Positions 26,892 to 50,488 are shown, counted from the first letter of the stretch. The stretch is 64,000 bases of DNA from an uncultured Clostridia bacterium (GCA_900019385.1 FIZJ01000007.1:2796-66795), one strand, 5' to 3'. Numbers and translations: made by a program. The notes: a model not told the origin generated them from the sequence alone.

Positions 26892-26908
26892 AGTTGGGAG
26901 ATGGTGGC

Positions 26909-35514: not shown

Positions 35515-35543
35515 TTGACAGCTGTTGATAAATAGAGTAAAAT
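35515..35543 (+). promoter_or_regulatory. Sigma-A promoter upstream of substrate-binding protein gene 1
   Basis: TTGACA, 17 nt, TAAAAT. The extended core TAGAGTAAAATGTAAACA is shared with the promoter at 37103-37131. Confidence 0.45.
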
Positions 35544-35704
35544 GTAAACACCTCGCAAGAATTGATAAGAAAATATTAGGTAAACGTTAAGTACGATACA
35601 TATTTTGCCAGGCAGGGGGGTGGAAGGGCGGCATAGACCAAACCCCGAGCAGCACGTAGTTTTGGTGGCGCGTGTCAGTAAAATCATGGAGAGGTGAGCG
35701 AGCA

Positions 35705-37045
35705 ATGAAAAGGCTGATACCGATTCTGTTGTTTGTTTTGATATTCGCCGCGGCAGCCCACGCCGAGGAAGTCAAACAAGTTATGGATTTGGGCGGCCGA
35801 GTGATCCGCATTCAGACACAGTGGGGTGGAGACACTCCGCTCGGGCCGAGAGGGGCCTACAACTGGTATAACCCTGACGAAATGCTGAAAGCCCACATCG
35901 AGAAAGTGGAGAAGATGTTCAACTGCAAGATCGAGTTCGTGCTCGAAGGCAACCGGGCAGACGCTCTTGAGACACTGCGCCTCAGCGTTCTTGCCGGGGA
36001 TAGGCCGTTTGACTTTTTCCAGCATTCGATTACTCCCGCATTGATCGCGGAAGGGCTGATCCAACCGCTTAACGATTACATCGGGCCCGATTTCTACGAT
36101 GCATATCCTTCCTTGTTCCGCCGCCCTGACCCGAGAATCGGGGCCGCGGTAGGTGACACCATCTACACCTTTGAGTCGTCCAACACTTCACCGGGGACCA
36201 AGTACATCCTTTGGAACAAGAGCATGGTGGAAAGGGCGGGCGTTGAGAGCCTCTACGATATTTACGAACGGGGCGAGTGGACCTGGGAAACTTTTGAGGA
36301 TGTGCTCCACAAGCTGACCAGGGACACTGACGGCGACGGCATCACCAATGTGTGGGGCATCCGCAGCATCAATCTCAAGGATGAGATCATAGTCATGCTG
36401 GTGTCCAACAGCGCCCGGGTGACAAAGACCACTGAGGACGGCAAGATCGTCTTTGACCTGCTTAATCCCCATGTCATCGATACGCTCGAATTCATGCAGC
36501 GCCTGTATCGAGACGGCGTTTGGGCCCGGCGCGGCCAGGCCGAGCTCGATGGCGCGGCGATGACCATCGCCACCGGTACCGATGTCACCAGCAAAGGCTA
36601 TCAAGATCACATGGCGTTGATCGGCGATGAATTCGGCCTGATGCTTCCGCCGCAGGGTCCAAACGGCAAGAATGAGTTCAATATGTATGCGGCAGCTTCC
36701 GGCGCAATACCGGTCTACGTGGAAGATCCGGAAGTGATCATCGAAGTTGTCAGCGCGCTGTGGATGGTCAAGGAACCCTACATCGAAGACATGGCGGCCT
36801 GGGAACAGGCATACTGGGATCGCTACATCTGGGGCCTGCAGGATGAAGAGTCTTACAATTTCCTTGTAAACCCCGACGTCGTGCCGGTGTTCCTGCCGTC
36901 GCCGATTGAGCGGGAAATCCTGTTCCCCAGCAGCACTCCGCCAGTATTTAACAGAATCATCGTCAACGGCGAAAGCGCAACCTCCGTTTTGGCTGCGGAA
37001 CAGCCGGTATTCCAGGCCCAGCTTGATGAAATCCTGAAGCAGTAG
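35705..37045 (+). CDS. Extracellular solute-binding protein of a carbohydrate ABC transporter (CUT1/Lpl-type), copy 1
   Basis: Signal peptide (MKRLIPILLFVLIFAAAAHA). About 446 aa. Paralog of 44299-45639 with roughly 75% aa identity. Confidence 0.72.
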   Translation: MKRLIPILLFVLIFAAAAHAEEVKQVMDLGGRVIRIQTQWGGDTPLGPRGAYNWYNPDEMLKAHIEKVEKMFNCKIEFVLEGNRADALETLRLSVLAGDRPFDFFQHSITPALIAEGLIQPLNDYIGPDFYDAYPSLFRRPDPRIGAAVGDTIYTFESSNTSPGTKYILWNKSMVERAGVESLYDIYERGEWTWETFEDVLHKLTRDTDGDGITNVWGIRSINLKDEIIVMLVSNSARVTKTTEDGKIVFDLLNPHVIDTLEFMQRLYRDGVWARRGQAELDGAAMTIATGTDVTSKGYQDHMALIGDEFGLMLPPQGPNGKNEFNMYAAASGAIPVYVEDPEVIIEVVSALWMVKEPYIEDMAAWEQAYWDRYIWGLQDEESYNFLVNPDVVPVFLPSPIEREILFPSSTPPVFNRIIVNGESATSVLAAEQPVFQAQLDEILKQ

Positions 37046-37065
37046 CGCCTGGCGCCGACGAGTTA

Positions 37066-37105
37066 GACGGGAGAGTCCGCTTTGCCAAAAGCGGACTCCC
37101 TTTTG
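37066..37105 (+). terminator. Rho-independent terminator after substrate-binding protein gene 1
   Basis: Perfect inverted repeat GGGAGAGTCCGCTTTTG/CAAAAGCGGACTCCC followed by TTTTG. The T-tract overlaps the −35 of the next promoter. Confidence 0.65.
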
Positions 37106-37131
37106 ACATTATATATATAATATAGTAAAAT
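37103..37131 (+). promoter_or_regulatory. Sigma-A promoter of the NHL-Yip1 gene, and likely of the downstream ABC genes
   Basis: TTGACA, 17 nt (TTATATATATAATATAG), TAAAAT. TTAAGTAAATTG motif in the 5'UTR at 37164-37175. Confidence 0.5.
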
Positions 37132-37231
37132 GTAAGCAATTTAAGAATGAAACAAACGAACTGTTAAGTAAATTGTTTAGTTGTCTGTTTGGTCAGTGGC
37201 TGTCGACAGGTTTCGCCGAGGAGGACTCTTT

Positions 37232-39397
37232 ATGCAGCGCAGAGGGTGGCTAATTGCAATAGTACTGCCAGCCGTGATCATCATGAGCGCCGTTGTTTGT
37301 TCCAGCGGTGCCAATGCGGCATTGTACCCAAGCTATGTGTACAACTACTGGGGCATGGCGGTACCGATACCAGATCCTTATGTTCCCGTCCGGACGGTCA
37401 GCGGCATGGATCTGGGGGTTGGCGAGTTCAGGAACGCCCAGTATATTTTTACCGCACCCGACAACACTCTGTACATTGTCGATACCGGAAACCACCGGAT
37501 CATCAGAACCACCAGTGATTTTACTCTGATCGAAGTCATCCAGCAATTTGAGCGGGACGGCAAGATCGAGAAGTTCAACAATCCCCAGAGCGTCTTTGTG
37601 ACCAGCGACGGGCGTTTGTTTGTCGCGGACACGCAGAATGAGCGCATTGTCGCCTTCAACCCCGACGGCAGCTTTGCCTACACGATCGACGCGCCGCAGG
37701 TCGACATCCGCGAAATGCTGTCTGAGCACTTCCGGTTCCGGCCCAAGCGGATCGCCATCGATCCGGTGAACCGCCTCTATGTCACTGTGGAAGGGGTTAT
37801 CGACGGGATCATGCACATGTCCCTTGAAGGGGAGTTCCGGGGTTTCATGGGAGCCCCAAGGGTGACAAGGTCTCCTTGGGAATACTTCTGGTACCAAATC
37901 GCCTCCGAGGAACAAAGAGCCAGGATGCGGCTTCTGCTGCCCACGGAATTCAGTGCCATGGCCCTGGATGACATGGGGTTTATATATGCCACCGTCGCCT
38001 CTTCGGAAGTGGAAACCAATCTTTTTATCCGTAAACTCAGCCCAGCCGGCAGCGATGTGCTGAGGCGCAATGGTTTTTTCCCGCCCATGGGCGATCTTAG
38101 TGAAGGGACTAATAGTAGTATTGTCGGATACTCGAAGCTGATTGACATCATCGGCCGCGACTACGGCATGTACAGCGCCTTGGATCAGCTCAGGGGCAGA
38201 GTGTTCACTTATGACTACAACGGAAACCTCCTTTATGTCTTCGGCGGTATCGGCAACGGGATAGGGCTGTTTACCAGCCCCAGCTCTTTGGCGGAGCTTG
38301 ACGGCAGGCTGTTGGTCCTGGACAGCCGAGGCGCCAACTGTATCACTGTGTTTGAACCGACCGCCTATGCCCACACAATTCACAACGCAGTGCGCTATCA
38401 ATATGACGGCCTGTTTGCCGAGGCGACAGAGTACTGGTGGCAGGTTATAGCCATGAATCCAAACTACGAGCCGGCCTATTCTGGTGTGGCCGAAGCCTAC
38501 ATGCAGCAGAAGAACTACAAACAAGCGATGCATTACTACAGGCTCGGCAACAACCGTCCTGGGTATTCCCGAGCATATGCCGCTCTCAGGTTTGAGTTTG
38601 TGAACAAGAATTTCGGAACCATGATGACCACTTTCTTGGCGCTCATATTCTTGATCTACATCGCCAAAGCACAGTCCTGGGGCTCCAAGCTCAGGCGCAG
38701 GTACGTTCAATCAAAAATGGCGCGCTGGTTCGCCAGGCCCGAAGTGCAGCAGAATCCCGTCTATGCGTGGCTGAAGCGGACATGGTACGCTCTGTGCTAT
38801 GCCAGGCATGTGATGTTCCACCCCTTTGACGGGTTCTGGGATTTGAAGCATGAAAACAGGGGCACTGTCACCGCCGCCACCATCCTGCTGGTTTTGACTG
38901 TGTTGTCTTATGTCTTTACGACTCAGTACACGGGGTTTCTCTTCAATATCAGAAGGGTTGAAAGCATCAACATCATGGTAGAAGCCATCAGTATCGGCGT
39001 TCCCTTTTTCCTGTGGTGCGTGGTGAACTGGGCGCTGACTACGCTGATGGACGGGAAGGGCACAATGAAGGACATTTATATCGCGGCGGCCTACAGCCTT
39101 ACCCCCTTCCTGCTGGCGGCAGTGCCTCTGACGATTGTCAGCAACTACATCACCATTGACGAGGGCAAATTGTTCAACCTGGCGTACTCCATCCCTGTGA
39201 TTTGGACCTTTGCACTGCTGTTTTTGGGCACCGGGCTGACCCATGATTACAGCTTCGGCAAAATCATGTTCACCACCGCCGCAACCGTGGTGGGAATCGG
39301 CTTCGCCTGTTTTGTCGGCCTCCTATTTTTCGATGTGCTCGACAGGATGCTTAGGTTTGTCCAGGAAGTGTACCGCGAAATCACGCTGCGGCTGTGA
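37232..39397 (+). CDS. Membrane protein: secreted NHL-repeat beta-propeller + TPR-like region + C-terminal Yip1-type multi-pass membrane domain
   Basis: GAGGAGGA ribosome-binding site. Signal peptide. NHL repeats (…LYIVDTGNHRIIRT…, …LFVADTQNERIVAF…). At least five to six hydrophobic helices in the last ~250 aa. Confidence 0.55.
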   Translation: MQRRGWLIAIVLPAVIIMSAVVCSSGANAALYPSYVYNYWGMAVPIPDPYVPVRTVSGMDLGVGEFRNAQYIFTAPDNTLYIVDTGNHRIIRTTSDFTLIEVIQQFERDGKIEKFNNPQSVFVTSDGRLFVADTQNERIVAFNPDGSFAYTIDAPQVDIREMLSEHFRFRPKRIAIDPVNRLYVTVEGVIDGIMHMSLEGEFRGFMGAPRVTRSPWEYFWYQIASEEQRARMRLLLPTEFSAMALDDMGFIYATVASSEVETNLFIRKLSPAGSDVLRRNGFFPPMGDLSEGTNSSIVGYSKLIDIIGRDYGMYSALDQLRGRVFTYDYNGNLLYVFGGIGNGIGLFTSPSSLAELDGRLLVLDSRGANCITVFEPTAYAHTIHNAVRYQYDGLFAEATEYWWQVIAMNPNYEPAYSGVAEAYMQQKNYKQAMHYYRLGNNRPGYSRAYAALRFEFVNKNFGTMMTTFLALIFLIYIAKAQSWGSKLRRRYVQSKMARWFARPEVQQNPVYAWLKRTWYALCYARHVMFHPFDGFWDLKHENRGTVTAATILLVLTVLSYVFTTQYTGFLFNIRRVESINIMVEAISIGVPFFLWCVVNWALTTLMDGKGTMKDIYIAAAYSLTPFLLAAVPLTIVSNYITIDEGKLFNLAYSIPVIWTFALLFLGTGLTHDYSFGKIMFTTAATVVGIGFACFVGLLFFDVLDRMLRFVQEVYREITLRL

Positions 39398-39444
39398 TAC
39401 TTAGCGTCCGCGTTTCAGAAATTCTATTGCAGGGAGCGATCACC

Positions 39445-42297
39445 GTGTTAGGCCAACCAACCTATAGGAGGATACTGCTGAGTCTTACCTCGATACTGCT
39501 GCTTGCGGCCAGTCTCTCTGTCTGTGCCCAAGAGGGGGATTTCCAGCTTGTGGCCAGCAATGAATACCTTAACCTGTATATTGATCCGGTCACCACAGAA
39601 GTGGCTGTCGAGGACAAAGCCACACACACATTCTGGTACAGCAACCCGCAGGATCGCTTCAGCCAGAGAGGGCTGAACTTGGAGAGGTTGAGCAGCCAGT
39701 TCACAATTACACATCACTTTATCCGTTCAGGCGCGCCTGAGCTGGCGGAGAAGGAGAATTACCGCTTCAGCACTGTCTATGAGCAGTATGATATCCAGGA
39801 GATTGAGAACGGTGTCCGGATTGACTATACTTTGGTGGAACAGTGGCAGCCCCGGCATTACGTCCCTCGGATGATCAGCCAGGAGCGGATGGAGGCCCTT
39901 ATCTTTTCAGAGGATCCCGAGGTCCGGGCCGAACAGGAATCGGTATTATTAAATTATTATCATTTGATCATGCTCGCTCCCCTGGGTGACCGGAAGCCGT
40001 TGGAGATCGCCGGGTTCAACCATGAACGGGTGTTCGGCGAGTACGATCTGGTTGTGCTTAACAAGGATTATCAGGAACGGGAGCGCCAACTGGAGGCAAT
40101 GAAGGCGCAGGCGGCTCAGATGGCGGAAGACGCGCCGGAACGGGCTGACTTGGAGAGCCAGATCACCAAGCTTGAGAGCCAGCTGAACAAAGAAAAAACT
40201 GACATCATCAAACGCCTGGTCGAAAACCTGGTCGAGAGCCGGCAGGATATCGAAAAATCCGATTTTGTCACCTTCCAGGATGTGGCTCAGCTGGTAGGCA
40301 ACCCGACCTATCTTCTGCAGAAGGTGCCGCAGTTTACTCTGAACACCATCTATAATGTCTTGGCCGAGACCGACTATACACCGATCGAGTGCGGTGAAGA
40401 CCATGTGATGAACAACCTCGACCCGCTTCTGCCCAACGTGCAGATTTTCCATATCCCTCTGGAATACGTCCTGGACGGGCCGGAACTTCTGGTCCGGATT
40501 CCGGTCAAAGACGTGAAGTATCCGGTGGATGTGGAGGATGTTGTCGGGGAAAAGCATACATTCCCGCTTCTGACCATCAGAGTGCTTGAGTATTTTGGCG
40601 CCGCCGGAAAAGACAGTGAGGGATATATGCTGGTACCGGACGGCTCCGGCGCCCTGATCAATCTCAACAACGGACGCCTGGCGGGAGCGGCGTTCAACGA
40701 GCCGGTCTATGGGCCCGACGGTGCCCAGGACCAGCCCGCCGAGAAGCGGAGATACCCGGAGCAGACAGTCATGCCGGTATTCGGCATCAAGGACAATGAC
40801 AAGGCGCTGTTCGCCGTGATCGAGGAAGGTGCGTCCTTTGCCCGCGTCAGAGCGGACATTGCCGGCAGGATCAACGACTATAACCGGATTTTCGCCGAGT
40901 TTCAGCTGCTGGCCAACGGCAGAGTCGCTTTGAGTGAGAAGGCCAGCCACATAAGTTTCTCGGGATCGGCCGCTATCTATCAGCAGCGGATGTATGAAGG
41001 GGATATCGTGATCCGGTATTTCTTCTTGACCGGGGATGACGCGGACTACATCGGCATGGCCGATTCCTACCGCCGCTACTTGATGGATAAATACCAGCTG
41101 AAACCGCTTGAACCGGCAGAAGATGTTCCGTTCTTCCTGGAGTTGGTGGGAGGCATTGACACCATCGAACCGATTTTGGGAATCGCCCGGAAGGTGATCC
41201 GCCCCTTGACCACGTTCAACCAGGCGCAGGAGATTTTGCAGACTTTGTCGCAGCAGGGAATCAGCAATATTAAACTAAAGTATCTTGGTTGGCTCAGCGG
41301 CGGCATCCGCCATGATTACCCGGTTAGCGTCCAGGCTGAAAAAGCTTTGGGAGGAGCCAAGGCTTTCCAGGCGCTGGCGGAGTTCGCCAAGGCCAATGGA
41401 CATGAACTGTATCCAAGTGTAGGTTTTCAAAGTGTGTACCTGGGAAGCAAGCAGAACGGGTTCAATTCGAAACAGGATGCGGCCCGCGGGCTTAACAATC
41501 TTGCCGCGAGGCGTTATGAGTATTGGCTGGATACTTTCGACAGGGCCTATCCAGTCAGTTGGGTGCTTTCCCCCAGGATTCTGGGGGAGACGGTGGATCA
41601 GTTCCTGGCCAATTACCGTCAGTATGGAGTGCCTGGCCTGGCCTTGTTGGATCTGGCCCACGAGCTGAATTCCGACTTCAACAACGACGTAAGAAAGCTG
41701 GTTGACCGGGAACAGGCCTTGAACACTATCACGGAACAGCTGAAAAAGATGAAGAGCGTTGGTTACAAGCTGATGGTGGATTACGGCAACAGCTACGCCG
41801 TTCCCTATGCCGACGCCATAGTCAACATGCCGACGCATGGAAGCTCATACTATATTGTCGATGAAGAAATTCCCTTTTATCAAATTGTGCTGCACGGGCT
41901 GGTGCCGTATGCCGGAGAACCGATCAACCTGGCCGCCCATGGGCAAGACTCGTTCCTGAAAATGATCGAGACAGGAGGGTATCCTTATTTCATCGGCAGT
42001 TATCAGGAGTCTTCAATGGTGAAGGACACTGATTTCGCCTATCTATATTCACTGCATTACAACGACTGGCTCGAGCTTGCCGCAGAGATGTACCAAAAGG
42101 CGAATGCCGCCCTGAAGGGCATCCAGAACCTTAAGATCGTTGATCACCGCAAACTTGCGGACAATGTATACCAGACTATGTATGAAAACGGCCGGACGAT
42201 CATCGTCAATTACAATGACGATGCGGTCATGGTAGGAGATTGGCTGGTCGGCGGCAAAGACTTTGTTGTACTGGAGGGCATTGCTGATGCGAATTAG
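39445..42297 (+). CDS. Large secreted protein of unknown function (about 950 aa; coiled-coil segment; DUF5696-like from memory)
   Basis: Probable GTG start with an AGGGAG ribosome-binding site. Signal peptide/lipobox-like sequence (RRILLSLTSILLLAASLSVCAQ). Glu/Lys/Gln-rich coiled coil at about aa 200-270. No recognisable catalytic motifs. Confidence 0.4.
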   Translation: MLGQPTYRRILLSLTSILLLAASLSVCAQEGDFQLVASNEYLNLYIDPVTTEVAVEDKATHTFWYSNPQDRFSQRGLNLERLSSQFTITHHFIRSGAPELAEKENYRFSTVYEQYDIQEIENGVRIDYTLVEQWQPRHYVPRMISQERMEALIFSEDPEVRAEQESVLLNYYHLIMLAPLGDRKPLEIAGFNHERVFGEYDLVVLNKDYQERERQLEAMKAQAAQMAEDAPERADLESQITKLESQLNKEKTDIIKRLVENLVESRQDIEKSDFVTFQDVAQLVGNPTYLLQKVPQFTLNTIYNVLAETDYTPIECGEDHVMNNLDPLLPNVQIFHIPLEYVLDGPELLVRIPVKDVKYPVDVEDVVGEKHTFPLLTIRVLEYFGAAGKDSEGYMLVPDGSGALINLNNGRLAGAAFNEPVYGPDGAQDQPAEKRRYPEQTVMPVFGIKDNDKALFAVIEEGASFARVRADIAGRINDYNRIFAEFQLLANGRVALSEKASHISFSGSAAIYQQRMYEGDIVIRYFFLTGDDADYIGMADSYRRYLMDKYQLKPLEPAEDVPFFLELVGGIDTIEPILGIARKVIRPLTTFNQAQEILQTLSQQGISNIKLKYLGWLSGGIRHDYPVSVQAEKALGGAKAFQALAEFAKANGHELYPSVGFQSVYLGSKQNGFNSKQDAARGLNNLAARRYEYWLDTFDRAYPVSWVLSPRILGETVDQFLANYRQYGVPGLALLDLAHELNSDFNNDVRKLVDREQALNTITEQLKKMKSVGYKLMVDYGNSYAVPYADAIVNMPTHGSSYYIVDEEIPFYQIVLHGLVPYAGEPINLAAHGQDSFLKMIETGGYPYFIGSYQESSMVKDTDFAYLYSLHYNDWLELAAEMYQKANAALKGIQNLKIVDHRKLADNVYQTMYENGRTIIVNYNDDAVMVGDWLVGGKDFVVLEGIADAN

Positions 42298-43195
42298 GTT
42301 TTGGCCGCGCTTTACTCTGAGGCGGAAACGGGCGGTATGGGGGTACCTGTTTGTCAGCCCGTTCATCCTTGGTTTTATTGCCTTCTTCCTGGGGCCGATA
42401 GTCCAATCGATCATTTTTGCCTTTAACGAGCTTACCATCAAGGCGGCAGGTTTTGAGCTCACCTATGTGGGCTGGGAGAACTTCCGCTACGCGCTCCGGG
42501 TTGACCCGGATTTTGTCCGGGTGTTCACCGAGACAACGATCCAGATCCTGGTGGACCTGCCGGCCATCATCCTGTTCAGCTTCTTCGCGGCAAACCTTTT
42601 GAACCAGAAATTCCGCGGCCGGTGGATGGCAAGGGTGGTCTTCTTCCTGCCGGTGATCTTGACCGCGGGCATCGTTTACAGGTTCGAATCGGGGGACATT
42701 CTCACCGATGTCCTGGGTTATGTGCCGGACGAGACGGAAGTATTCTCTGTTTCCCGATCGATGATTGGATTGCTGTCGGTGTTGAGGATGCCGGCTTGGT
42801 TTGTGCAGTACATTCTGACGGCGGTGGAAAGAGTCCCGGACATCATCAAAGCTTCCGCCATACCGATTGTGGTGTTTTTGTCCGCCCTGCAGGGAATCCC
42901 TTCGTCGCTCTACGAGTGCGCCGCCATTGAGGGGGCGACCGGCTGGGAGACATTCTGGAAAATCACATTTCCTCTGGTGTCGCCGCTGTTTTTGACCAAC
43001 ATCATTTATATCATCGTGGATTCATTCACACGCCCCGGCAACACGTTGGTGGAGTTGATCAACGATTCGGCCTGGGGCCGGGGTATTTACGGGGTCAGTG
43101 TGGCGATGACCTGGATGTATTTTGGCGTGATTGCTGTCATCCTCGTACTGGTGTTCTTGCTCTTGGCCAGACGTGTCGTTTATATGGAGGAGTGA
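42287..43195 (+). CDS. Carbohydrate ABC transporter permease (LplB/MalF-like)
   Basis: GGAGGG ribosome-binding site. Six TM helices. About 300 aa. Confidence 0.8.
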   Translation: MRIRFWPRFTLRRKRAVWGYLFVSPFILGFIAFFLGPIVQSIIFAFNELTIKAAGFELTYVGWENFRYALRVDPDFVRVFTETTIQILVDLPAIILFSFFAANLLNQKFRGRWMARVVFFLPVILTAGIVYRFESGDILTDVLGYVPDETEVFSVSRSMIGLLSVLRMPAWFVQYILTAVERVPDIIKASAIPIVVFLSALQGIPSSLYECAAIEGATGWETFWKITFPLVSPLFLTNIIYIIVDSFTRPGNTLVELINDSAWGRGIYGVSVAMTWMYFGVIAVILVLVFLLLARRVVYMEE

Positions 43196-43201
43196 TTAAA
43201 C

Positions 43202-44176
43202 ATGGCCGCTGAACTGAGCCGCGATCTCGAAACAATGCCTAAGGTCCGCCGCAAGAGCAGGTTTTTCACTTCACACTTTTGGGCGGAAACACTGTGGGCC
43301 TTCGTTCGGGCTGTATTGGTCCTGGGAATCTGTTACATTATCGTCTATCCGCTCCTGATAAAGCTGTCATCGTCAATGATGACAGAAAAGGACATGTACG
43401 ACATGCTGGTGAAATGGATCCCCAGGAAACTGAACTATGAAAGCATTGTCCAGAACTACAGGCTGCTGTACGGTTTTATGGACTATCCGAAGGCTTTGTT
43501 CAACTCGCTGGTCTTGGCCACAACTGTCGCCCTGCTGCAGGTGGTTTCCAGCAGTTTGATCGGCTACGGCCTTGCCCGGTTTGACTTTTTCGGCAAGAAT
43601 CTGCTCTTTGCGCTGGTGATCCTCACCCTGTTGATCCCGCCGCAGATGATCATGGTGCCTTTGTTTCTGAATTTCCGGTTTTTCGACTTCTTTGGGATCA
43701 TGCCCAAATCCGTGAACTTGTTGGGGACTTACTGGCCTTTCATCCTGACTTCCATTACCGGCATGGGACTGCGCAACGGGTTCTTTATCTACATCATGCG
43801 CCAGGTGTTCAGGGGCCTGCCGAAAAGCCTGGAAGAGGCGGCTTTGGTGGACGGAGCCGGGCAGTTCAGGACTTTTTTGACTATAATGGTGCCTGGGGCG
43901 GCTTCGGCCATGCTGGTTGTATTCTTGTTTGCCTTCGTTTGGCAGTACAACGACTACCAGTTTACCCGCATGTACCTGTCCAACACCGCGCCGCTGCTGC
44001 CGTTTTCCCTGGAGCGGTTGACGCGGACCTTTGATGTGGAGCAGTATTCCAAAGAGTATATCTCGATTCTCAACAATACCGGTATGATCATGTTCATCAC
44101 ACCGCTGCTGTTGCTTTATGGGTTTCTGCAGAGATACTTCATTGAAAGTATCGAGCGGACTGGTATTGTCGGCTGA
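43202..44176 (+). CDS. Carbohydrate ABC transporter permease (LplC/MalG-like)
   Basis: Six TM helices. About 320 aa. Follows the first permease by 6 nt. Confidence 0.8.
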   Translation: MAAELSRDLETMPKVRRKSRFFTSHFWAETLWAFVRAVLVLGICYIIVYPLLIKLSSSMMTEKDMYDMLVKWIPRKLNYESIVQNYRLLYGFMDYPKALFNSLVLATTVALLQVVSSSLIGYGLARFDFFGKNLLFALVILTLLIPPQMIMVPLFLNFRFFDFFGIMPKSVNLLGTYWPFILTSITGMGLRNGFFIYIMRQVFRGLPKSLEEAALVDGAGQFRTFLTIMVPGAASAMLVVFLFAFVWQYNDYQFTRMYLSNTAPLLPFSLERLTRTFDVEQYSKEYISILNNTGMIMFITPLLLLYGFLQRYFIESIERTGIVG

Positions 44177-44298
44177 CCGAAGGCTGTGACAGGGGAGGTG
44201 ATTGGCGAGCACCACTTCTGCAGTATTGGGTGAGCTTTTAAAGGGCTTGAAAAGTACTGCTGTGCAATAATCAATACTAACAAAGAGGTGACTGATCT

Positions 44299-45639
44299 AT
44301 GAAAAAACTGATTCCGGTTTTGCTGCTGCTAGTGATCGTTTTCGCTGCAAGCGCCAAGGCTGCCGAAACACCCAAGATTGATTTGGGCGGCCGGACGATC
44401 CGCATTCAATGCCAATGGTACAACATCACACCCTTAGGGCCGCGGGGCGCTTACAACTGGTATGAACCCGATGAAATACTGAAAGCGCATATCGAGTCGG
44501 TAGAAAAGATGTTCAACTGCAAGATCGAGTTTGTCCAACAAGGCAATGCCGCAGATGCCCTGGAAACACTGCGGTTGGCTGTTTTGGCCGGAGATCAGCC
44601 GTTTGATTTCTTCGCCATTCAAATCAGCCCGGCCGTGATTGCCGACGGATTGATTCATCCGCTGAACGACTACATAGGCCCGGACTTCTACGATGCTTAT
44701 CCCAAGCTGTTTAGGCGGCCGGATCCCCGTATCGGCGCAAGTGTGGGCGATACAATCTACACCTTTGAATACAACAACCACTCGTCGGAAGCCAGGTATT
44801 TGGTGTGGAACAAGAGCCTGTTTGAAAGGGAAGGTGTGGAAAGCCTCTACGACATCTTTGAGCGGGGCGAATGGACCTGGGCCAAGTTCGAAGAGGTGCT
44901 CCATGCTCTGACCAAGGACAAAGACGGCGACGGTATCACTGATCAGTGGGGCATTAGAAGTGTCAACCTCCGGGATGAGATCATCGTCATGCTGGTGTCC
45001 AACAGCGCAAGGGTGTCGAAGACCACCGAAGATGGGAAGATTGTCTTTGACCTGCTCAACCCCCATGTGATTGAAACTGTGGAATTCATGCAGCGCCTGT
45101 ACAGCGACGGTGTCTGGGCGCGGCGCGGCCAGGCCGAGCTTGGCGATGCGGCCATGACGATCCAGATCGGCACCGAAATCTCCGGCAGGTCGTACCAAGA
45201 GCACTTCCAGACCATCGGCGACGAGTGGGGGCTGATGCTGCCGGCGCAGGGCCCGAACGGCAAGAACGAGTTCAACATGTTTGTCGATGCCAGAGGCGCT
45301 ATTCCGATTTATGTGGAAGATCCTGCCGCAATCATTGAAGTGGTCAGTGCCCTGTGGCAGATCAAGGAACCTTATATCGAGGATATGGAAGCCTGGGAGC
45401 AGACTTATTGGGAACGGTACGCATCGGGCTTGTTTGACTACGAGTCCTTTGAGCTGCTCAGTAATCCGCCGGTGACACCCGTGTTCCTGCCTACCCAGCT
45501 TGAACGCTCAATTCTGTTTGAGAGCAGCAATCCGCAGGCGTTCGTCAGAATCATTGTCAACGGTGAAAGCGCGACCAGCGTCCTCGCCGCTGAGCAGCCG
45601 GTATGGCAGGCGCAGCTGGATGAGATTCTCAAGCAGTAG
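44299..45639 (+). CDS. Extracellular solute-binding protein of the carbohydrate ABC transporter, copy 2
   Basis: Signal peptide (MKKLIPVLLLLVIVFAASAKA). Collinear with copy 1 along its full length. Confidence 0.72.
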   Translation: MKKLIPVLLLLVIVFAASAKAAETPKIDLGGRTIRIQCQWYNITPLGPRGAYNWYEPDEILKAHIESVEKMFNCKIEFVQQGNAADALETLRLAVLAGDQPFDFFAIQISPAVIADGLIHPLNDYIGPDFYDAYPKLFRRPDPRIGASVGDTIYTFEYNNHSSEARYLVWNKSLFEREGVESLYDIFERGEWTWAKFEEVLHALTKDKDGDGITDQWGIRSVNLRDEIIVMLVSNSARVSKTTEDGKIVFDLLNPHVIETVEFMQRLYSDGVWARRGQAELGDAAMTIQIGTEISGRSYQEHFQTIGDEWGLMLPAQGPNGKNEFNMFVDARGAIPIYVEDPAAIIEVVSALWQIKEPYIEDMEAWEQTYWERYASGLFDYESFELLSNPPVTPVFLPTQLERSILFESSNPQAFVRIIVNGESATSVLAAEQPVWQAQLDEILKQ

Positions 45640-45693
45640 CAGTCCTGCGGTTTGAGCAGCAGAACTGCGTTTGCTGAAATCTGAAGCACGGTG

Positions 45694-45725
45694 TTAAAGT
45701 CCGCTTCCGGCAGGAGCGGACTTTA
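45694..45725 (+). terminator. Terminator-like hairpin after substrate-binding protein gene 2
   Basis: TTAAAGTCCGCT…AGCGGACTTTAA stem. The AGTCCGC/GCGGACT core is shared with the terminator at 37066-37105. The trailing T-tract is weak. Confidence 0.4.
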
Positions 45726-45749
45726 ATGCTCAAAGAAGAGGGGATGAAG

Positions 45750-47774
45750 ATGAAGTACGGCGTTTCGTATTATCCGGAACACAAGGATCAGGCTGAAATC
45801 GGCCATGATATCGCCCTGATGAAAGAGTTGGGCGTCAATCTGGCGCGGATGGGCGAGTTCGCCTGGTGCAAGTTTGAACCCCGGGAAGGGGAGTATGACT
45901 TTGCCTGGCTTGACCCAGTGATCGAACAGCTGGGGGAGAACGGGATCCAGACCATTGTCTGCACTCCGACTGCCTGCCCTCCGGCTTGGCTTGTGGAAAA
46001 GCACCCGGAGATCCTTTATGTGGACAACCGGGGAGTGGCCAGGCCCTTTGGCGGCAGGCGGCATTATTGTTACAACAACCCGGTCTATCGAGAGTACTCC
46101 CGCAGGATTGCCGAGGCGGTGGCCGCCCACTATGGGGACAACCCCTACGTTTACGCCTTCCAGATTGACAATGAACTGGCTCAGGAGGGGACAGGCCGGT
46201 GCCGCTGCCCGGTGTGCCGGGAGAAATTCCAGAGATGGCTTGAGGCCAAGTATGGGACGATAACCGAGCTAAACAGGAGAATGGGCACAATCTTCTGGGG
46301 CCAGGTTTATGATCATTTCGGCCAGATCCATCCCCCGGTGAACACTATTGAACCTAACACCGCACAGGCCATCCCCGCTTACTTTGAGAACCCGTCGCTG
46401 CGCCTGGATTTCGAGCGTTTCTGCAGCGAGTCCAATATTGAGTATCAAAACATCCAAAGAGATGCGATCAAAGCATACACCGACAAGCCGACAACCACCA
46501 ACGCCACAGGTTTGGCCACCAACAGCATCGATTATTACAGAGCCTTTCAGAATCTGGATGTGTACGCTTTCGACTATTACCCCAACCTGCGAGAGGGCAT
46601 GATCAGTTCCTTCCCGTATGCCCATGCGCGAGGGGTTTGCAATAAGGACTTCTGGCTGCTGGAGTTCGTTTCCGGCGGCGGCCACGGACTCTGGGGTTCA
46701 GGCAGGCTGCAGCCGTACCCCGGCGCCCTGCGCCAGGCGGCCGTCCATGCCTTCGCCGCCGGAGCGGATTTGGTGGCGCATTTTCAGTTTAGGACCTTCC
46801 CGTTTGGGGCGGAACAGCTGAACTATGCCATCGTGGATATCGACGGGATCCCCAGGCGCCGGTTCTACGAAATGCAGGCCGCCGCCAAGGATCTGAGGCA
46901 GCTTGGCTTGACACTGAAGAATTCCTACTTTGAGAACGAAGTTGCCGTCTTGTTCGATTATGATTCACTGTGGGCGCTGAAGATCAAGCCCATCGCCAAG
47001 GATTTCGACTACGCGCATTTCTGCGGCGAGTTCTACCACCAGCTGACCAGGCTGGGTGTGGGAGTCGATGTGATCTCGTTCGATCACGATCTGGACAAAT
47101 ACAAGGTTGTGATCGTCCCAGCCCCCATGATTATGAGCGAAGCGTTCAAGCGGCGTTTGAAACAATACGTCTACAACGGAGGCGTTTTATTATCCACGTT
47201 TCTTGCGGGGGTGAAAAACCTGGACAATCTGGGGATCACCGAGTCCCTGCCTTGTGGGCTTACTGATCTGTTCGGGATCAGAGTCGGGGAAGTGGAACCG
47301 GTGGTGGAGAGCACAGCCGCCGCTGTCACCCTGGACACCGGCACCGGCTGTGCCCGGGGTATGAACAGGTACTGGGCGGAAACCCTCGAACCAAACGGGG
47401 CGGAGCTGATCGGCACATACACCGGCAACTTCCGGGAAGGTATCGGTGTTATCAGCAAAAACAGCTACGGCAAGGGCACAGCATATTACCTGGGCACAGG
47501 CCTGGAGCCGGATCTTCTGAAAACCCTCTTGAAGAGGGTTGTGGAGGAAGGCGGGGTTGCCGGGCTGCCGTTCGCGGTCCCAGAGGGTGTGGAAGTGCTT
47601 GTGCGGAAGTACAACCACCAAAATTTGTACTGCATCTTCAATTTCTGCAAAGAACCAGCGGCAGTGGAGCTTGAGCGAGCCTACCACGATGTCCTGCGGG
47701 GCGCTGCTGTCGATGGGCTGGCGGAACTGCCGCCGAAAGGGTATCTGTTCTTATTGGAGGAGGGATGGGATTGA
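45750..47774 (+). CDS. GH42 beta-galactosidase (YesZ/BgaB-like)
   Basis: YGVSYYPEH start. Cys cluster GRCRCPVCREK (GH42 Zn site). IDNE acid/base region. AGAGGGGA ribosome-binding site. Confidence 0.85.
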   Translation: MKYGVSYYPEHKDQAEIGHDIALMKELGVNLARMGEFAWCKFEPREGEYDFAWLDPVIEQLGENGIQTIVCTPTACPPAWLVEKHPEILYVDNRGVARPFGGRRHYCYNNPVYREYSRRIAEAVAAHYGDNPYVYAFQIDNELAQEGTGRCRCPVCREKFQRWLEAKYGTITELNRRMGTIFWGQVYDHFGQIHPPVNTIEPNTAQAIPAYFENPSLRLDFERFCSESNIEYQNIQRDAIKAYTDKPTTTNATGLATNSIDYYRAFQNLDVYAFDYYPNLREGMISSFPYAHARGVCNKDFWLLEFVSGGGHGLWGSGRLQPYPGALRQAAVHAFAAGADLVAHFQFRTFPFGAEQLNYAIVDIDGIPRRRFYEMQAAAKDLRQLGLTLKNSYFENEVAVLFDYDSLWALKIKPIAKDFDYAHFCGEFYHQLTRLGVGVDVISFDHDLDKYKVVIVPAPMIMSEAFKRRLKQYVYNGGVLLSTFLAGVKNLDNLGITESLPCGLTDLFGIRVGEVEPVVESTAAAVTLDTGTGCARGMNRYWAETLEPNGAELIGTYTGNFREGIGVISKNSYGKGTAYYLGTGLEPDLLKTLLKRVVEEGGVAGLPFAVPEGVEVLVRKYNHQNLYCIFNFCKEPAAVELERAYHDVLRGAAVDGLAELPPKGYLFLLEEGWD

Positions 47775-50488
47775 TGAAGCAAGCACTGATCCTGACTGGT
47801 GGGGAAGTTGGCAGAAGGATTGAGTTCGGCATCAGCCTGCTTGAGCAGGGACTGGCACAGGCGGGTTATGATGTGAGGCGGGAAACTCTCATCGATCAGT
47901 TCCACAGCTACCGCGGTTTCGACGGCGACAAGATTTACGTTGGCTGCAGAGGCCGGGATCCGTTCATCGCATGGCTCGAAGAACAGGAAGTGCTGCTTTA
48001 CCACGGCCCGGAGCCGGGCAAGGAAGGCTTCTACTTGGAATCCTGCCCAGGGCGGCTCACCGTGGTGGTTGGGGGAGATGATACCGGCACTGTTTACGGC
48101 TGCCGGGAACTGGCAGGCCGCATCGCCCGTGAAGGGTCGCTCCCCACGAACCTGGCCTTCTATGACGCGCCCGCGTTCAAACTGCGGGGACCCTGCCTGG
48201 GGCTGCAGAAAACTAAGATCGAGCCGCCGCGGCTGACGTATGAATACCCGATCACCCCGGATCGGTTCCCCTGGTTCTACGACAAAGAGCTGTGGCGTGT
48301 GTTCCTGGACCGTATGGTGGATTACCGCTGCAACGTGCTCTATTTGTGGAGCGGCCATCCTTTTTCTTCACTGGTCAAGCTCGAAGAGTACCCCGAAGCG
48401 CTGGAAGTCTCGGAAGAGGAGTACGAGCTCAACCGCGCCATGTTCCGCTGGCTGACGGAGGAATGCGACCGCCGGGGGATTTGGGTTGTGCTCAAATTCT
48501 ACAATATCCACATTCCGTACCCCTTTGCCGTAAAGCACGGCCTGGAACAGCGCCAGGCAAGGATTCACCCTTTGGTGGCCGATTACACCGCCAAATCGAT
48601 TGTTGAATTCATCAAATCTTTTCCCAACATTGGACTCATGGTTTGCCTGGGTGAAGCCCTCCGCGGTTACGACAACAAGACCGAATGGTTCGTCAAGACG
48701 ATCATCCCGGCGGTCAAGGAGGGCATGCGGCAAGCTGGGATTGGGGAAGAGCCGCCGATCATCCTCCGGGCTCACGACTGCGATCCTTTCGCTGCGATCG
48801 CAGGGGCCGAAGAGCTTTATTCCAACCTGTACACCATGTGGAAGTACAACGGCGAAAGCCTGACCACCTATTACCCCAGAGGCAGCTGGCAGAGGCAGCA
48901 CAAAGCATTGAGCGGGATGAAGTCGACGCACATCATCAATGTGCATGTTCTGGCCAATCTGGAGCCTTTCCGCTACAACGCCGTGAATTTTATTCAAAAA
49001 AGCATGCAGGCCGCCAAGTACCGACTGGGCGGCAACGGACTGCATTTGTACCCCCTCTTCTATTGGGACTGGCCTTACGCTCCGGACAAGGCTGAACCGA
49101 GAATGCTGCAGCTGGACCGGGACTGGATGTGGTACGAAGCCTGGTTCCGCTATGCCTGGAACCCGGAACGGGATGAAAAGGATGAGTCCCTGTATTGGAC
49201 GAAACGAGTGGGAGAGCATTACCAGATCGACAGCCAAGCCGCCGGACTCCTGGTGGAGGCGATGAACAGCGCCGGGCAGATCGCCCCGAAGATCCTGGGC
49301 AGGATCGGCATCACCGAAGGCAACCGCCAGACGTTCAGCCTGGGTATGACCTTAAGTCAGATCACCAATGTCAACCGCTATGGCCCCAACCGGGAGCTGT
49401 GGCATTCGGTGGCCAGAGCCGGAGAACAGCCCGATGACTACATCACGAAAGAACTGGCAGGCCGGCCCCATGTCGGTGAGACACCTTATGATATGATAGA
49501 AGAAGTGAAGGCCGACGCCGAGGCGGCTTTAAGCAAGTGCGAACAGGCTTTTGGCCTTATTAACGAACCCTGCTTGGAGCTCCGCCGCATCAAGAGCGAT
49601 ATTGAGGCGCTGTACCATCTGACCCGGTTTTATTGTTTCAAACTGGAAGCAGGTATGGAAGTCTTGAAGTACAAGTATACAATGGATGAACAGTTTAGGG
49701 GCGATTTTTCCCTCCTGGACAAAGCCGAAGGGCTGCTGGCCCAGAGCCTTGAGGCCTACAAAAAGCTTACGGCAATCACCGAGCGGACTTATCTTTATGC
49801 CAACAGCCTCCAGACCAGGCACCGCAAAATTCCGTTCCCCGACGGTGAGTTGTATGACCATTGGCGCCAGTGCCTGCCGGAATATGAACGGGAGTATGAG
49901 AACTTCCGCCGCAATATCGCCAGGCTCAAAGCAGGCGATCTGCCCCAGTTCGAGGCTGGTGCCCAATCATCCCTACCGGAAGCCCCGTTCAAGCTGTTGG
50001 GCAGCGACTGCGAGCTGTACAAGGTGGTGAAAGGGGAGAAACTCTTCACAGACGGGGATCAGATTATCTATGATGTGATTAAGCCCTTGGAAGGCCTCAC
50101 AGGCATCCGCATGGCCCATGCCCATGCCCGGAGCGCAGGGTGCAGCATCAAGATCGAACTGCCTGAGGACAGCCAGATTCTGATTGGGTATATCAAAGAA
50201 AGAGATCCAAAATGGCTGCAGGCGCCTGAATTGGAGACCAATGCCCACGCCGACGACCGGGGTGGTGTGAAAGTACGGTTCAAGAACGCAATCAACGCCA
50301 GCAGCTGCCCACCCATTGACATTCACGCTCTCCAGTATGAAAAGGGAGTCCACGAACTATACTTCGGCACAGGCAGCTATCTGGTCGTGGGAGTGATCCC
50401 CAAAGCCGCGAACCTCGACGCTTATGCCGGAAAGCACAAATACGACGGGCCGGAAACCCTCGATTGGCTGTACTACAGTCTAGACTAA
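47774..50488 (+). CDS. Large glycoside-hydrolase-like protein, family unassigned (architecture reminiscent of GH67/GH89/GH115: N-terminal alpha/beta domain + TIM barrel + helical C-terminus)
   Basis: About 904-aa ORF with a GGAGGAGGG ribosome-binding site. No signal peptide. Trp-rich. Located in the CAZyme operon. Confidence 0.35.
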   Translation: MKQALILTGGEVGRRIEFGISLLEQGLAQAGYDVRRETLIDQFHSYRGFDGDKIYVGCRGRDPFIAWLEEQEVLLYHGPEPGKEGFYLESCPGRLTVVVGGDDTGTVYGCRELAGRIAREGSLPTNLAFYDAPAFKLRGPCLGLQKTKIEPPRLTYEYPITPDRFPWFYDKELWRVFLDRMVDYRCNVLYLWSGHPFSSLVKLEEYPEALEVSEEEYELNRAMFRWLTEECDRRGIWVVLKFYNIHIPYPFAVKHGLEQRQARIHPLVADYTAKSIVEFIKSFPNIGLMVCLGEALRGYDNKTEWFVKTIIPAVKEGMRQAGIGEEPPIILRAHDCDPFAAIAGAEELYSNLYTMWKYNGESLTTYYPRGSWQRQHKALSGMKSTHIINVHVLANLEPFRYNAVNFIQKSMQAAKYRLGGNGLHLYPLFYWDWPYAPDKAEPRMLQLDRDWMWYEAWFRYAWNPERDEKDESLYWTKRVGEHYQIDSQAAGLLVEAMNSAGQIAPKILGRIGITEGNRQTFSLGMTLSQITNVNRYGPNRELWHSVARAGEQPDDYITKELAGRPHVGETPYDMIEEVKADAEAALSKCEQAFGLINEPCLELRRIKSDIEALYHLTRFYCFKLEAGMEVLKYKYTMDEQFRGDFSLLDKAEGLLAQSLEAYKKLTAITERTYLYANSLQTRHRKIPFPDGELYDHWRQCLPEYEREYENFRRNIARLKAGDLPQFEAGAQSSLPEAPFKLLGSDCELYKVVKGEKLFTDGDQIIYDVIKPLEGLTGIRMAHAHARSAGCSIKIELPEDSQILIGYIKERDPKWLQAPELETNAHADDRGGVKVRFKNAINASSCPPIDIHALQYEKGVHELYFGTGSYLVVGVIPKAANLDAYAGKHKYDGPETLDWLYYSLD

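What the first reader, a model, noticed from the sequence alone, without database searches (positions are those of the whole stretch)
35705..45725. ABC sugar importer with duplicated substrate-binding protein genes bracketing two non-canonical accessory genes (NHL-TPR-Yip1 membrane protein and a ~950-aa secreted protein)
Canonical CUT1 loci run SBP, permease, permease. Here the order is SBP1, then a large membrane protein whose extracellular NHL beta-propeller and TPR region are tethered by a Yip1-type multi-pass domain, then a ~950-aa secreted or lipoprotein-like protein with a coiled-coil, then the two permeases, then SBP2. No ATPase gene is present, so a shared MsmX-type ATPase is presumably used. 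The two inserted proteins have no recognisable catalytic motifs. Their position inside the transporter operon, under the strong promoter at 37103-37131, suggests they are surface capture, processing or scaffold components for the imported oligosaccharide. This would be a possible Gram-positive analogue of Sus-like surface glycan-binding machinery. I have a weak recollection that Yip1-family and DUF5696 proteins co-occur with Lpl-type ABC genes in Paenibacillaceae, but I cannot verify it here.
Basis: partly seen in the sequence, partly recalled or inferred. Interest (0 to 1): 0.62.

Follow-up and report, generated by a model that had tools for sequence, protein, structure and literature searches.

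The report
Sugar importer with built-in enzyme partners
A sugar-uptake pump of an uncultured Limnochordia bacterium is always encoded together with a glycosidase-like protein and a large membrane protein, and this four-gene unit recurs unchanged in every one of 136 other bacterial loci with room to check, without any description in the papers I could search.

Summary
On the + strand lie SBP1 (35705-37045), an NHL-TPR-Yip1 membrane protein (37232-39397), a 967-aa DUF5696 protein (39394-42297), two ABC permeases (42287-43195, 43202-44176) and SBP2 (44299-45639). The SBPs are 76% identical. No ATPase gene is in the window.

New findings:
- DUF5696 is not featureless. Its model has the GH129 glycosidase fold, and a fragment of the GH129 enzyme NagBb scores above Pfam's DUF5696 threshold.
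- The order NHL-Yip1, DUF5696, permease 1, permease 2 holds in 72/72 genome loci anchored on DUF5696. It also holds in 64/64 metagenome loci anchored on NHL-Yip1. Hosts include Limnochordia, Halanaerobiaceae, Clostridia and Paenibacillaceae, with up to 6 copies per genome.
- Neighbouring carbohydrate-enzyme genes vary between loci.
- SBP1 is its own transcription unit.
- Limnochordia have an outer membrane, and the signal peptides lack lipoboxes. Here the machinery therefore faces the periplasm, not the cell surface.

Best reading: a CUT1-type importer functionally, perhaps physically, coupled to a GH129-like enzyme and a membrane scaffold. Catalysis and complex formation are inferred, not shown. 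It is a new variant of a known kind. Interest 0.6.

The parts
35515..35543 (+). Promoter-like site upstream of SBP1 (TTGACA-17-TAAAAT)
   Evidence: It matches 11 of 12 consensus positions. It shares the extended motif TTGACA-N16-GTAAAATGTAARCA with the site at 37103. That motif occurs only twice in the window, against 0.01 expected.
35705..37045 (+). SBP1, a solute-binding protein with a Sec signal peptide and no lipobox cysteine
   Evidence: Pfam SBP_bac_1, E 3.6e-12. The N-terminus is MKRLIPILLFVLIFAAAAHA/EE. It is 76% identical to SBP2.
37062..37107 (+). Terminator-type hairpin after SBP1 (GGGAGAGUCCGCUUUG...AAGCGGACUCCC, then UUUU)
   Evidence: RNA fold -28.4 kcal/mol, z -4.5, with 0 of 200 shuffles folding as well. 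Sequence shown.
37103..37131 (+). Promoter-like site for the NHL-Yip1 / DUF5696 / permease / (SBP2) unit
   Evidence: It matches 11 of 12 consensus positions. It overlaps the T-tract of the preceding terminator.
37232..39397 (+). NHL beta-propeller, TPR and Yip1 polytopic membrane protein (721 aa)
   Evidence: Pfam Yip1 E 1.7e-16 and NHL E 1.1e-11. AF2 model pLDDT 84: six-bladed propeller 50-376, TPR-like helices 378-438, then TM helices. Foldseek top hits are NHL propellers with TMt about 0.8. Topology: signal, 436 aa outside, TM, a 65-aa K/R-rich loop, 5 TM.
39394..42297 (+). DUF5696 protein, a GH129-like three-domain glycosidase-fold protein (967 aa; NCBI models start 17 codons later, at 39445)
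   Evidence: Pfam PF18952, E 9e-204. AF2 pLDDT 89. Foldseek: 5opq E 9e-30 and NagBb 5wzq TMt 0.71, then GH101, GH36 and GH31. Profile against PDB: 5opq E 1e-7. hhalign to a NagBb-like sequence: 95-98% probability over residues 539-946. The start overlaps the preceding stop by 4 nt.
42287..43195 (+). ABC permease 1 (MalF/UgpA-like TMD)
   Evidence: BPD_transp_1 and UgpA-like, E 2.7e-11. Six hydrophobic segments and the EAA-type motif YECAAIEGATGWETFWKITFP. It overlaps the DUF5696 stop by 11 nt.
43202..44176 (+). ABC permease 2 (MalG/UgpE-like TMD)
   Evidence: BPD_transp_1, E 4.4e-13, and UgpE-like, E 3.8e-19. Canonical EAA motif EAALVDGAGQFRTFLTIMVP.
44299..45639 (+). SBP2, a paralogue of SBP1, with a Sec signal and no lipobox
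   Evidence: SBP_bac_1, E 1.3e-12. 76% identical to SBP1. An SBP in this position follows permease 2 in many related loci.
45690..45730 (+). Hairpin after SBP2, with no U-tract; a weak terminator candidate
   Evidence: RNA fold of 45640-45730, z -3.6.

Best explanation
The locus encodes a binding-protein-dependent sugar importer of the CUT1 type. It has two permeases with intact ATPase-coupling (EAA) loops and two paralogous periplasmic binding proteins. The ATPase is encoded elsewhere.

Two further proteins are co-encoded with it in every related locus that could be checked. One is a secreted GH129-like glycosidase-fold protein (DUF5696). The other is a membrane protein that displays an NHL beta-propeller and a short TPR region on the outer face of the cytoplasmic membrane, anchored by a Yip1-type helix bundle.

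Most likely mechanism (inferred):
1. Oligosaccharides reach the periplasm. In this window they probably derive from pectin or rhamnogalacturonan-II.
2. The GH129-like protein binds and trims them. The NHL-TPR-Yip1 protein holds it next to the permeases.
3. The product passes to the SBP and is imported.

Shown:
- Domain identities.
- Extracytoplasmic and membrane topology, from sequence.
- Tight or overlapping gene junctions.
- Strict co-conservation across classes of Bacillota.
- Multiple paralogous copies per genome, in varied carbohydrate-enzyme contexts.

Inferred:
- Catalytic activity of the DUF5696 protein.
- Physical complex formation.
- The substrate.
For: Component identities.

Synteny:
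- Anchored on DUF5696 in species-level genomes, NHL+Yip1 lies directly upstream in 72/72 loci with room. Permeases 1 and 2 lie directly downstream in 72/72.
- Anchored independently on NHL-Yip1 in metagenome contigs, DUF5696 follows in 64/64 loci, permease 1 in 49/49 and permease 2 in 48/49.
- The cassette permeases form their own subfamily. They score 110-480 bits against the window proteins (>=200 in most loci), against 25-60 bits for other CUT1 permeases in the same loci.

Gene junctions overlap or are 6 nt apart.

Copy number: at least 6, 4 and 4 cassettes in single MAGs and 2-3 in Paenibacillus genomes. Four NHL-Yip1 paralogues are reported with the same 3.5-Mb longest contig.

Flanking genes are diverse: GH26, GH20, GH4, GH106, CBM35, AraC and LacI regulators, 89 families among 115 neighbours.

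Retention at the membrane fits the envelope type. In diderm lineages the proteins carry signal-peptidase-I type signals. In Paenibacillus the SBP has a lipobox and DUF5696 an N-terminal TM anchor.

In some lineages NHL-TPR and Yip1 are separate adjacent ORFs, in others they are fused. This is a Rosetta-stone link between the two halves.

Precedent: the Yip1-family protein YknW is a required accessory subunit that modulates assembly of the ABC transporter YknXYZ (PMC4887032).

Catalytic residues: in an ungapped local alignment the window protein has Asp at both positions that match the NagBb catalytic pair. D753 matches Asp435 and D796 matches Glu478. D761/D443, R772/R454 and AVP802-804/AVP484-486 are also in register. 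Asp435 is confirmed as catalytic in PMC5698469.
Against: - No experiment or structure shows a complex. Co-transcription of an enzyme with its transporter is common in glycan loci and needs no physical contact.
- The mirror-tree correlations (r 0.86-0.93) are equally high for the SBP and for a neighbouring permease pair. They show inheritance as a block and nothing more.
- The positions matching the GH129 catalytic pair are not conserved in the family. D753 is present in 50/120 sequences, an acid at 796 in 68/120, both in 38 and neither in 40.
- hhalign places a 4-residue gap that would shift the nucleophile match to E757.
- The best-conserved acidic residues (D416, D442, E477, D761, D823, E859) have no assigned role.
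- The NHL propeller and TPR region give no clue to a ligand.
- The substrate assignment rests only on neighbouring genes.
Confidence: 0.55

Rival explanations
1. This is an ordinary glycan-utilisation operon. The GH129-like protein is a free periplasmic exo-glycosidase, and the NHL-TPR-Yip1 protein has a separate role. They share a promoter with the transporter only because they act on the same substrate. No complex forms.
For: Enzyme-plus-transporter operons are common in Bacillota glycan loci (general knowledge). The DUF5696 protein of diderm lineages has a cleavable-looking signal peptide and no anchor. Mirror-tree values do not separate the core from other linked genes.
Against: The same four genes occur in the same order in 136 of 136 testable loci, across distant classes and among within-genome paralogues, while all other neighbours vary. 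That is much stricter than usual for substrate-linked enzymes. The cassette permeases are a dedicated subfamily. In monoderms DUF5696 is membrane-anchored.
Confidence: 0.2
2. The DUF5696 protein is mainly a non-catalytic glycan receptor or gate (a pseudo-enzyme). The NHL-TPR-Yip1 protein is a transmembrane sensor or regulator that controls transporter activity. Catalysis is retained only in some paralogues, or in none.
For: Positions matching the GH129 catalytic pair vary, and both are absent in a third of family members. The invariant motifs lie elsewhere: GYxxVPDGSG, D442 and E477 in the N-domain. The most conserved stretch of the membrane protein (HPFDGFWDLKHE) lies in or next to the predicted cytoplasmic, K/R-rich loop. 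NHL propellers serve as extracellular sensor domains, as in PknD.
Against: The window protein itself keeps Asp at both candidate positions. In the GH129-like enzyme DagB the catalytic set differs from NagBb and includes an N-domain Asp supplied by the partner monomer (PMC5698469). Variable barrel residues and conserved N-domain acids are therefore compatible with catalysis. No signalling output domain is present.
Confidence: 0.17
3. The cassette acts on the cell's own envelope or exopolysaccharide, in recycling or remodelling, rather than on external dietary glycans.
For: GH129-like and GH20-like genes sit next to some Paenibacillus cassettes. Yip1/YknW precedents concern envelope-related transport.
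Against: In the window the cassette is embedded among pectate lyases, GH29, GH31, GH42, GH106-like, a BT_1020-like protein and sugar catabolic genes. Neighbours elsewhere include GH26 mannanases and CBM35. SBP-dependent type I permeases are importers (established knowledge).
Confidence: 0.05

Closest known systems
CUT1-family ABC sugar importers of Bacillota (MalEFG, LplABC or Msm type, with a shared MsmX ATPase)
   Same: SBP_bac_1 binding proteins. Two BPD_transp_1 permeases with EAA loops. No ATPase gene in the locus.
   Different: Two extra genes sit in fixed positions directly upstream of the permease genes. The permeases form a dedicated subfamily. About 80% of related loci also carry a second, more conserved permease pair upstream, which is absent in this window.
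GH129 and GH129-like glycosidases (NagBb alpha-N-acetylgalactosaminidase, PDB 5wzn; DagB 3,6-anhydro-D-galactosidase, PDB 5opq)
   Same: N-terminal beta-sandwich, TIM barrel and C-terminal beta-domain. Significant profile similarity. A NagBb fragment scores above Pfam's DUF5696 threshold. An Asp sits at or near the nucleophile position in the window protein.
   Different: Only 11-15% identity. There is a helical-hairpin insertion of about 80 residues in the N-domain. The catalytic positions are not conserved across the cassette family. NagBb and DagB are stand-alone enzymes, not tied to a transporter and a Yip1 protein.
YknWXYZ of Bacillus subtilis (Yip1-family YknW as accessory subunit of an ABC transporter)
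   Same: A bacterial Yip1-domain membrane protein genetically and functionally tied to an ABC transporter.
   Different: YknYZ is a MacB-type exporter with a membrane-fusion protein. YknW has no NHL or TPR ectodomain. Here the partner is a type I importer.
Sus-like systems (SusC/SusD utilisomes) of Bacteroidota
   Same: A fixed transporter-plus-accessory gene set, present in many paralogous copies per genome, each among different carbohydrate-enzyme genes. A glycan-processing or glycan-binding protein is coupled to uptake.
   Different: No homology. No TonB-dependent transporter or SusD. The cassette acts at the cytoplasmic membrane (the periplasm in this diderm host), not at the outer surface. 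Uptake is ATP-driven.

Membership tests
CUT1 ABC importer | Extracytoplasmic solute-binding protein of the SBP_bac_1/8 type | tested here: met
   Two SBPs, E 3.6e-12 and 1.3e-12, both with signal peptides.
CUT1 ABC importer | Two BPD_transp_1 membrane subunits with the EAA coupling motif | tested here: met
   Pfam and NCBIfam UgpA/UgpE/MalF/MalG-like hits. Permease 1's Pfam score (25.0 bits) is just below the gathering threshold (26.4). EAA motifs are present in both.
CUT1 ABC importer | MalK/MsmX-type ATPase | not testable with these tools
   No ABC_tran domain in any scanned ORF of the 64-kb window. A shared ATPase elsewhere in the genome is usual for Bacillota (established knowledge) but could not be looked for.
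GH129 (CAZy) / Pfam DUF5696 | Three-domain fold: N-terminal beta-sandwich, (beta/alpha)8 barrel, C-terminal beta-domain | tested here: met
   AF2 pLDDT 89. Foldseek top hits are 5opq, 8rzk and 5wz* with TMt 0.63-0.71. The domain layout of DagB is described in PMC5698469.
GH129 (CAZy) / Pfam DUF5696 | Sequence-level homology to characterised members | tested here: met
   PF18952, E 9e-204. NagBb residues 220-360 score 45 bits on PF18952, above the cut-off of 25.6. Profile against 5opq E 1e-7 and NagBb 3e-5. hhalign 95-98%.
GH129 (CAZy) / Pfam DUF5696 | Catalytic nucleophile equivalent to NagBb Asp435 / DagB Asp486 | tested here: inconclusive
   The ungapped alignment gives D753. hhalign gives E757. 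The column is D in only 50/120 family members.
GH129 (CAZy) / Pfam DUF5696 | Second catalytic carboxylate (NagBb Glu478, numbering from my own recollection) | tested here: inconclusive
   Both alignments place D796 there. The column is D/E in 68/120. This residue is not conserved even between NagBb and DagB (PMC5698469).
GH129 (CAZy) / Pfam DUF5696 | Glycosidase activity | not testable with these tools
   Needs an enzyme assay.
Yip1 family (PF04893) | Five-TM Yip1 domain | tested here: met
   E 1.7e-16, full-length match 2-172 of 173. Five hydrophobic helices between residues 544 and 703.
NHL-repeat beta-propeller | Six-bladed propeller with NHL repeats | tested here: met
   PF01436, E 1.1e-11. 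PDB TRIM71/Thin NHL domains at E 1e-17 to 1e-19. Foldseek TMt about 0.8.
Sus-like PUL | SusC (TonB-dependent transporter) and SusD pair | tested here: not met
   No such domains among the window ORFs scanned with Pfam. The resemblance is only in logic.
YknWXYZ-type four-component transporter | MacB-type permease plus membrane-fusion protein plus Yip1 protein | tested here: not met
   The permeases are BPD_transp_1 and no MFP is present. Only the Yip1 accessory idea carries over.

The most novel reading that the evidence does not exclude
The NHL-TPR-Yip1 protein, the GH129-like protein and the two permeases form a stable supercomplex. This would be an enzyme-coupled type I ABC importer. The four-gene cassette would then be the Bacillota counterpart of the SusC/D pair. 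It would be a conserved chassis, duplicated and re-tuned for different glycans, that marks polysaccharide-utilisation loci from Limnochordia and Halanaerobiaceae to Paenibacillus and gut Clostridia. The family has at least 3,000 clusters at 50% identity.
Probability: 0.3. Interest if true: 0.8.

Novelty: new variant of a known kind. Interest (0 to 1): 0.6.

Why it matters
ABC sugar importers are textbook systems of binding protein, two permeases and an ATPase. An accessory pair in a fixed position, found in every related locus checked, would add a new layer: substrate processing or delivery built into the transporter.

The cassette is widespread. The DUF5696 family has 4,870 representatives at 50% identity. 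It occurs in soil, digester, rumen and termite-gut samples and in human-gut metagenomes. It is multi-copy per genome, and I found no description of it in the searchable literature.

It would give a simple genomic marker for glycan-utilisation loci in Bacillota, where no SusC/D-like marker exists. It also assigns a concrete, testable role to two large families annotated only as 'DUF5696' and 'YIP1 family protein'.

Tried and rejected
- Literature searches for DUF5696, PF18952, and Yip1 with NHL, ABC transporter and glycoside hydrolase found nothing. 'YIP1 family protein' with Paenibacillus or with 'ABC transporter permease' gave only unrelated papers.
- A search with a NagBb fragment returned only gene fragments. 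I rebuilt a NagBb-like sequence from a frameshifted contig instead.
- The mirror-tree analysis gave high correlations for every linked gene, including the SBP and the upstream permease pair. It does not single out the core as interacting.
- Unusually long DUF5696 homologues (1,070-1,930 aa) were scanned for carbohydrate-binding modules. None was recognised.
- The shared promoter motif was searched across the window as a possible operator. It occurs only at the two sites already known.
- I rejected the idea that the duplicated SBPs are a defining feature. Related loci have zero, one or several SBPs, on either side.
- I rejected an exporter role, because the permeases are of the SBP-dependent type I importer class.

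Full report
**What is there**

The region 35.7-45.7 kb carries six + strand genes:

| Gene | Coordinates | Evidence (unless stated) |
|---|---|---|
| SBP1 | 35705-37045 | SBP_bac_1 |
| NHL-TPR-Yip1 membrane protein, 721 aa | 37232-39397 | NHL E 1.1e-11; Yip1 E 1.7e-16 |
| DUF5696 protein, 967 aa | 39394-42297 | PF18952 E 9e-204 |
| Permease 1 | 42287-43195 | BPD_transp_1; UgpA-like |
| Permease 2 | 43202-44176 | BPD_transp_1; UgpE-like |
| SBP2 | 44299-45639 | SBP_bac_1 |

- The TPR hits of the membrane protein fall below Pfam thresholds. PDB matches to consensus TPR proteins and the AF2 model support a short TPR region.
- SBP1 and SBP2 are 76% identical.
- No ABC ATPase domain occurs in any large ORF of the window.
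- Exact-sequence look-up places the genes in uncultured Limnochordia MAGs.

**Transcription units**

- SBP1 has its own promoter-like site (35515-35543). It is followed by a strong hairpin plus U-tract at 37062-37107 (-28.4 kcal/mol, z -4.5).
It heads the unit NHL-Yip1, DUF5696, permease 1, permease 2 and probably SBP2.
- Junctions inside this unit are tight. There is a 4-nt overlap with the longest ORF (a 47-nt gap with the NCBI start), then an 11-nt overlap, then a 6-nt gap. A 122-nt gap precedes SBP2.
- The two promoter regions share an extended motif found nowhere else in the window. This suggests common control.

**Topology**

- The membrane protein has an N-terminal signal and 436 residues outside (propeller plus TPR). 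One TM helix follows, then a 65-residue K/R-rich loop (13 K/R against 4 D/E) and five Yip1 helices.
- The DUF5696 protein has one N-terminal hydrophobic segment after YRR. The remaining 922 residues are acidic.
- Neither SBP, nor the DUF5696 protein, has a canonical lipobox cysteine.
- Cultivated Limnochordia are diderm (PMC11456536), so these proteins most likely act in the periplasm.
- In monoderm Paenibacillus the homologous SBP has a lipobox. The DUF5696 homologue has an uncleaved-looking N-terminal TM anchor.
- Retention near the cytoplasmic membrane is thus kept in both envelope types.

**The large protein is GH129-like**

- The AF2 model (pLDDT 89, pTM 0.82) matches the GH129-like 3,6-anhydro-D-galactosidase DagB (5opq, E 9e-30, TMt 0.69). 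[quoted passage not shown] GH101, GH36 and GH31 follow.
- A profile of 35 family members finds 5opq at E 1e-7 and NagBb at 3e-5 by sequence alone.
- Residues 220-360 of NagBb score 45 bits on Pfam DUF5696, above the cut-off of 25.6. Pfam's 'family of unknown function' therefore already includes GH129.
- Paenibacillus genome papers report one 'GH129' per genome from dbCAN-type annotation. I could not confirm that those are these proteins.

I rebuilt a NagBb-like sequence from a frameshifted contig. hhalign then aligned window residues 539-946 to it at 95-98% probability.

| Window residue | NagBb residue | Note |
|---|---|---|
| D753 | Asp435 | ungapped alignment; catalytic per PMC5698469; hhalign's 4-residue gap makes it E757 |
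| D761 | D443 | |
| R772 | R454 | |
| D796 | Glu478 | residue number from my own recollection |
| AVP802-804 | AVP484-486 | |

Across 120 family members, D753 occurs in 50 and an acid at 796 in 68. Both occur in 38 and neither in 40. The near-invariant acids are D416, D442 and E477 in the N-domain, and D761, D771, D823 and E859 in the barrel.

In DagB the catalytic set differs from NagBb and includes an Asp supplied by the N-domain of the partner monomer. Catalytic machinery is plastic in this superfamily. The window protein is plausibly active, but this is not shown.

**Co-conservation**

- A genome scan with the DUF5696 profile confirmed 559 hits and returned the best 80 loci. I searched six-frame ORFs of these loci with HMMs built from the window proteins and their homologues.
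- NHL+Yip1 lies directly upstream in 72/72 loci with room. Two apparent misses were ORF-boundary artefacts. Permeases 1 and 2 lie directly downstream in 72/72.
- The reverse test was anchored on NHL-Yip1 in metagenome contigs. DUF5696 followed in 64/64 loci, permease 1 in 49/49 and permease 2 in 48/49.
- Hosts include Limnochordia and related Bacillota MAGs, Halanaerobiaceae, Mahella, Hungateiclostridiaceae, Oscillospiraceae, Paenibacillus, Cohnella, Thermobacillus and Lederbergia.
- Several genomes have 2-6 copies among the 80 kept loci.
- The DUF5696 family has 4,870 representatives at 50% identity, 3,001 of them at E <= 1e-30.
- The cassette permeases are a distinct subfamily by score.
- In about a third of loci, NHL-TPR and Yip1 are adjacent separate ORFs rather than one gene.
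- Neighbouring genes are diverse: GH26, GH20, GH4, GH106, CBM35, and AraC and LacI regulators.
Its recollection about Paenibacillaceae is right.

**What the comparisons do not show**

Pairwise-distance correlations among the five core parts are 0.86-0.93. That is as high as between the two permeases. The downstream SBP and an upstream permease pair give similar values. This shows inheritance as a block, not specific interaction. No tool here could predict a multimer.

**Mechanism**

I commit to a processing-coupled importer. The GH129-like protein binds and probably trims the oligosaccharide at the membrane. The NHL-TPR-Yip1 protein is the membrane scaffold that positions it next to the permeases. 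The SBPs take the product, and an ATPase encoded elsewhere drives import.

The Yip1 protein YknW, which modulates assembly of the ABC transporter YknXYZ (PMC4887032), is the nearest precedent for the scaffold role.

My confidence by layer (judgment, not a computed result):

| Claim | Confidence |
|---|---|
| Component identities | about 0.95 |
| Functional linkage | about 0.8 |
| Physical complex | about 0.5 |
| Catalysis by the window protein | about 0.55 |

The rivals are listed separately: a plain operon without contact, a receptor/sensor role with a pseudo-enzyme, and envelope-glycan recycling.

**Context**

The whole window reads as a pectin/rhamnogalacturonan-II utilisation and sugar-catabolism region. 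It carries pectate lyases, GH106-like, GH29, GH31, GH42, GH2 and BT_1020-like genes, split transketolases, a DUF1537-type kinase with PdxA, and corrinoid methyltransferase-like genes. That is the only basis for the substrate guess.

**Novelty**

All parts belong to known families, and the genes are annotated piecemeal in public records. The fixed four-gene cassette and its scale were not found in the searchable literature. I rate it a new variant of a known kind, interest 0.6.

Noticed in passing
L046:5785-7643 and most loci L027-L162, directly upstream of the NHL-Yip1 gene; absent in the window: About 80% of related loci (50/70 genome, 57/65 metagenome) carry a second permease pair immediately upstream of NHL-Yip1. 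One member of that pair (P2') was measured and is more conserved than the core genes, with mean p-distance 0.40 against 0.55-0.66. The usual full cassette therefore has four permease genes flanking the two accessory genes. The window's clade has lost the upstream pair.
   Followed up: partly
L046:2799-5774: The Paenibacillus version has a 991-aa binding protein with an N-terminal TM anchor. Its first 590 or so residues have no Pfam match and precede the SBP_bac_1 domain. It sits beside a normal lipoprotein SBP.
   Followed up: no
window 6427-10909 (- strand genes) and 50508-51653: A B12-binding protein, a PocR-AraC regulator and two URO-D-like (MtaA-type) genes sit among pectin-degrading genes. 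This hints at corrinoid-dependent O-demethylation of methylated sugars, such as the 2-O-methyl sugars of rhamnogalacturonan-II.
   Followed up: no
window 15425-27799: Two split transketolase pairs, a transaldolase, a DUF1537-type kinase (SBD_N/NBD_C), PdxA and a DHDPS-family gene lie together. From my own recollection this set resembles published D-apiose and tetronate catabolic pathways. It fits an RG-II theme together with the BT_1020-like (52780-54576) and GH106-like (2198-5296) genes.
   Followed up: no
window 35515-35550 and 37103-37138: The two promoter-like sites share TTGACA-N16-GTAAAATGTAARCA. The motif occurs only twice in the window, against 0.01 expected. It could be a shared operator or an extended promoter element. 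A LacI-family regulator is encoded at 59882-60895.
   Followed up: partly
window 21451-23367, 23139-24497 and 47765-50488: Three large ORFs (638, 452 and 907 aa) have no Pfam match. The 907-aa one lies directly after the GH42 gene, just downstream of the cassette.
   Followed up: no
L109:9147-14948, L097:9259-13719, L105:9201-12758, L107:4105-7764: Some cassette DUF5696 homologues from metagenome contigs are 1,190-1,930 aa long. Their extensions match no Pfam family.
   Followed up: partly
L071 (contig assigned to Candidatus Udaeobacter) and P0028 (labelled 'archaeon'): Cassette genes appear in bins assigned outside Bacillota. This is either mis-binning or horizontal transfer.
   Followed up: no
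window 5310-6230 (- strand): A D12-class N6-adenine DNA methyltransferase gene sits alone among carbohydrate genes.
   Followed up: no
DUF5696 family alignment, window residues 753 and 823: All 13 family members with Asn instead of Asp at position 823 have Asp at position 753. Only 37 of 105 members with Asp823 do. This could reflect alternative catalytic configurations, or a single clade.
   Followed up: partly
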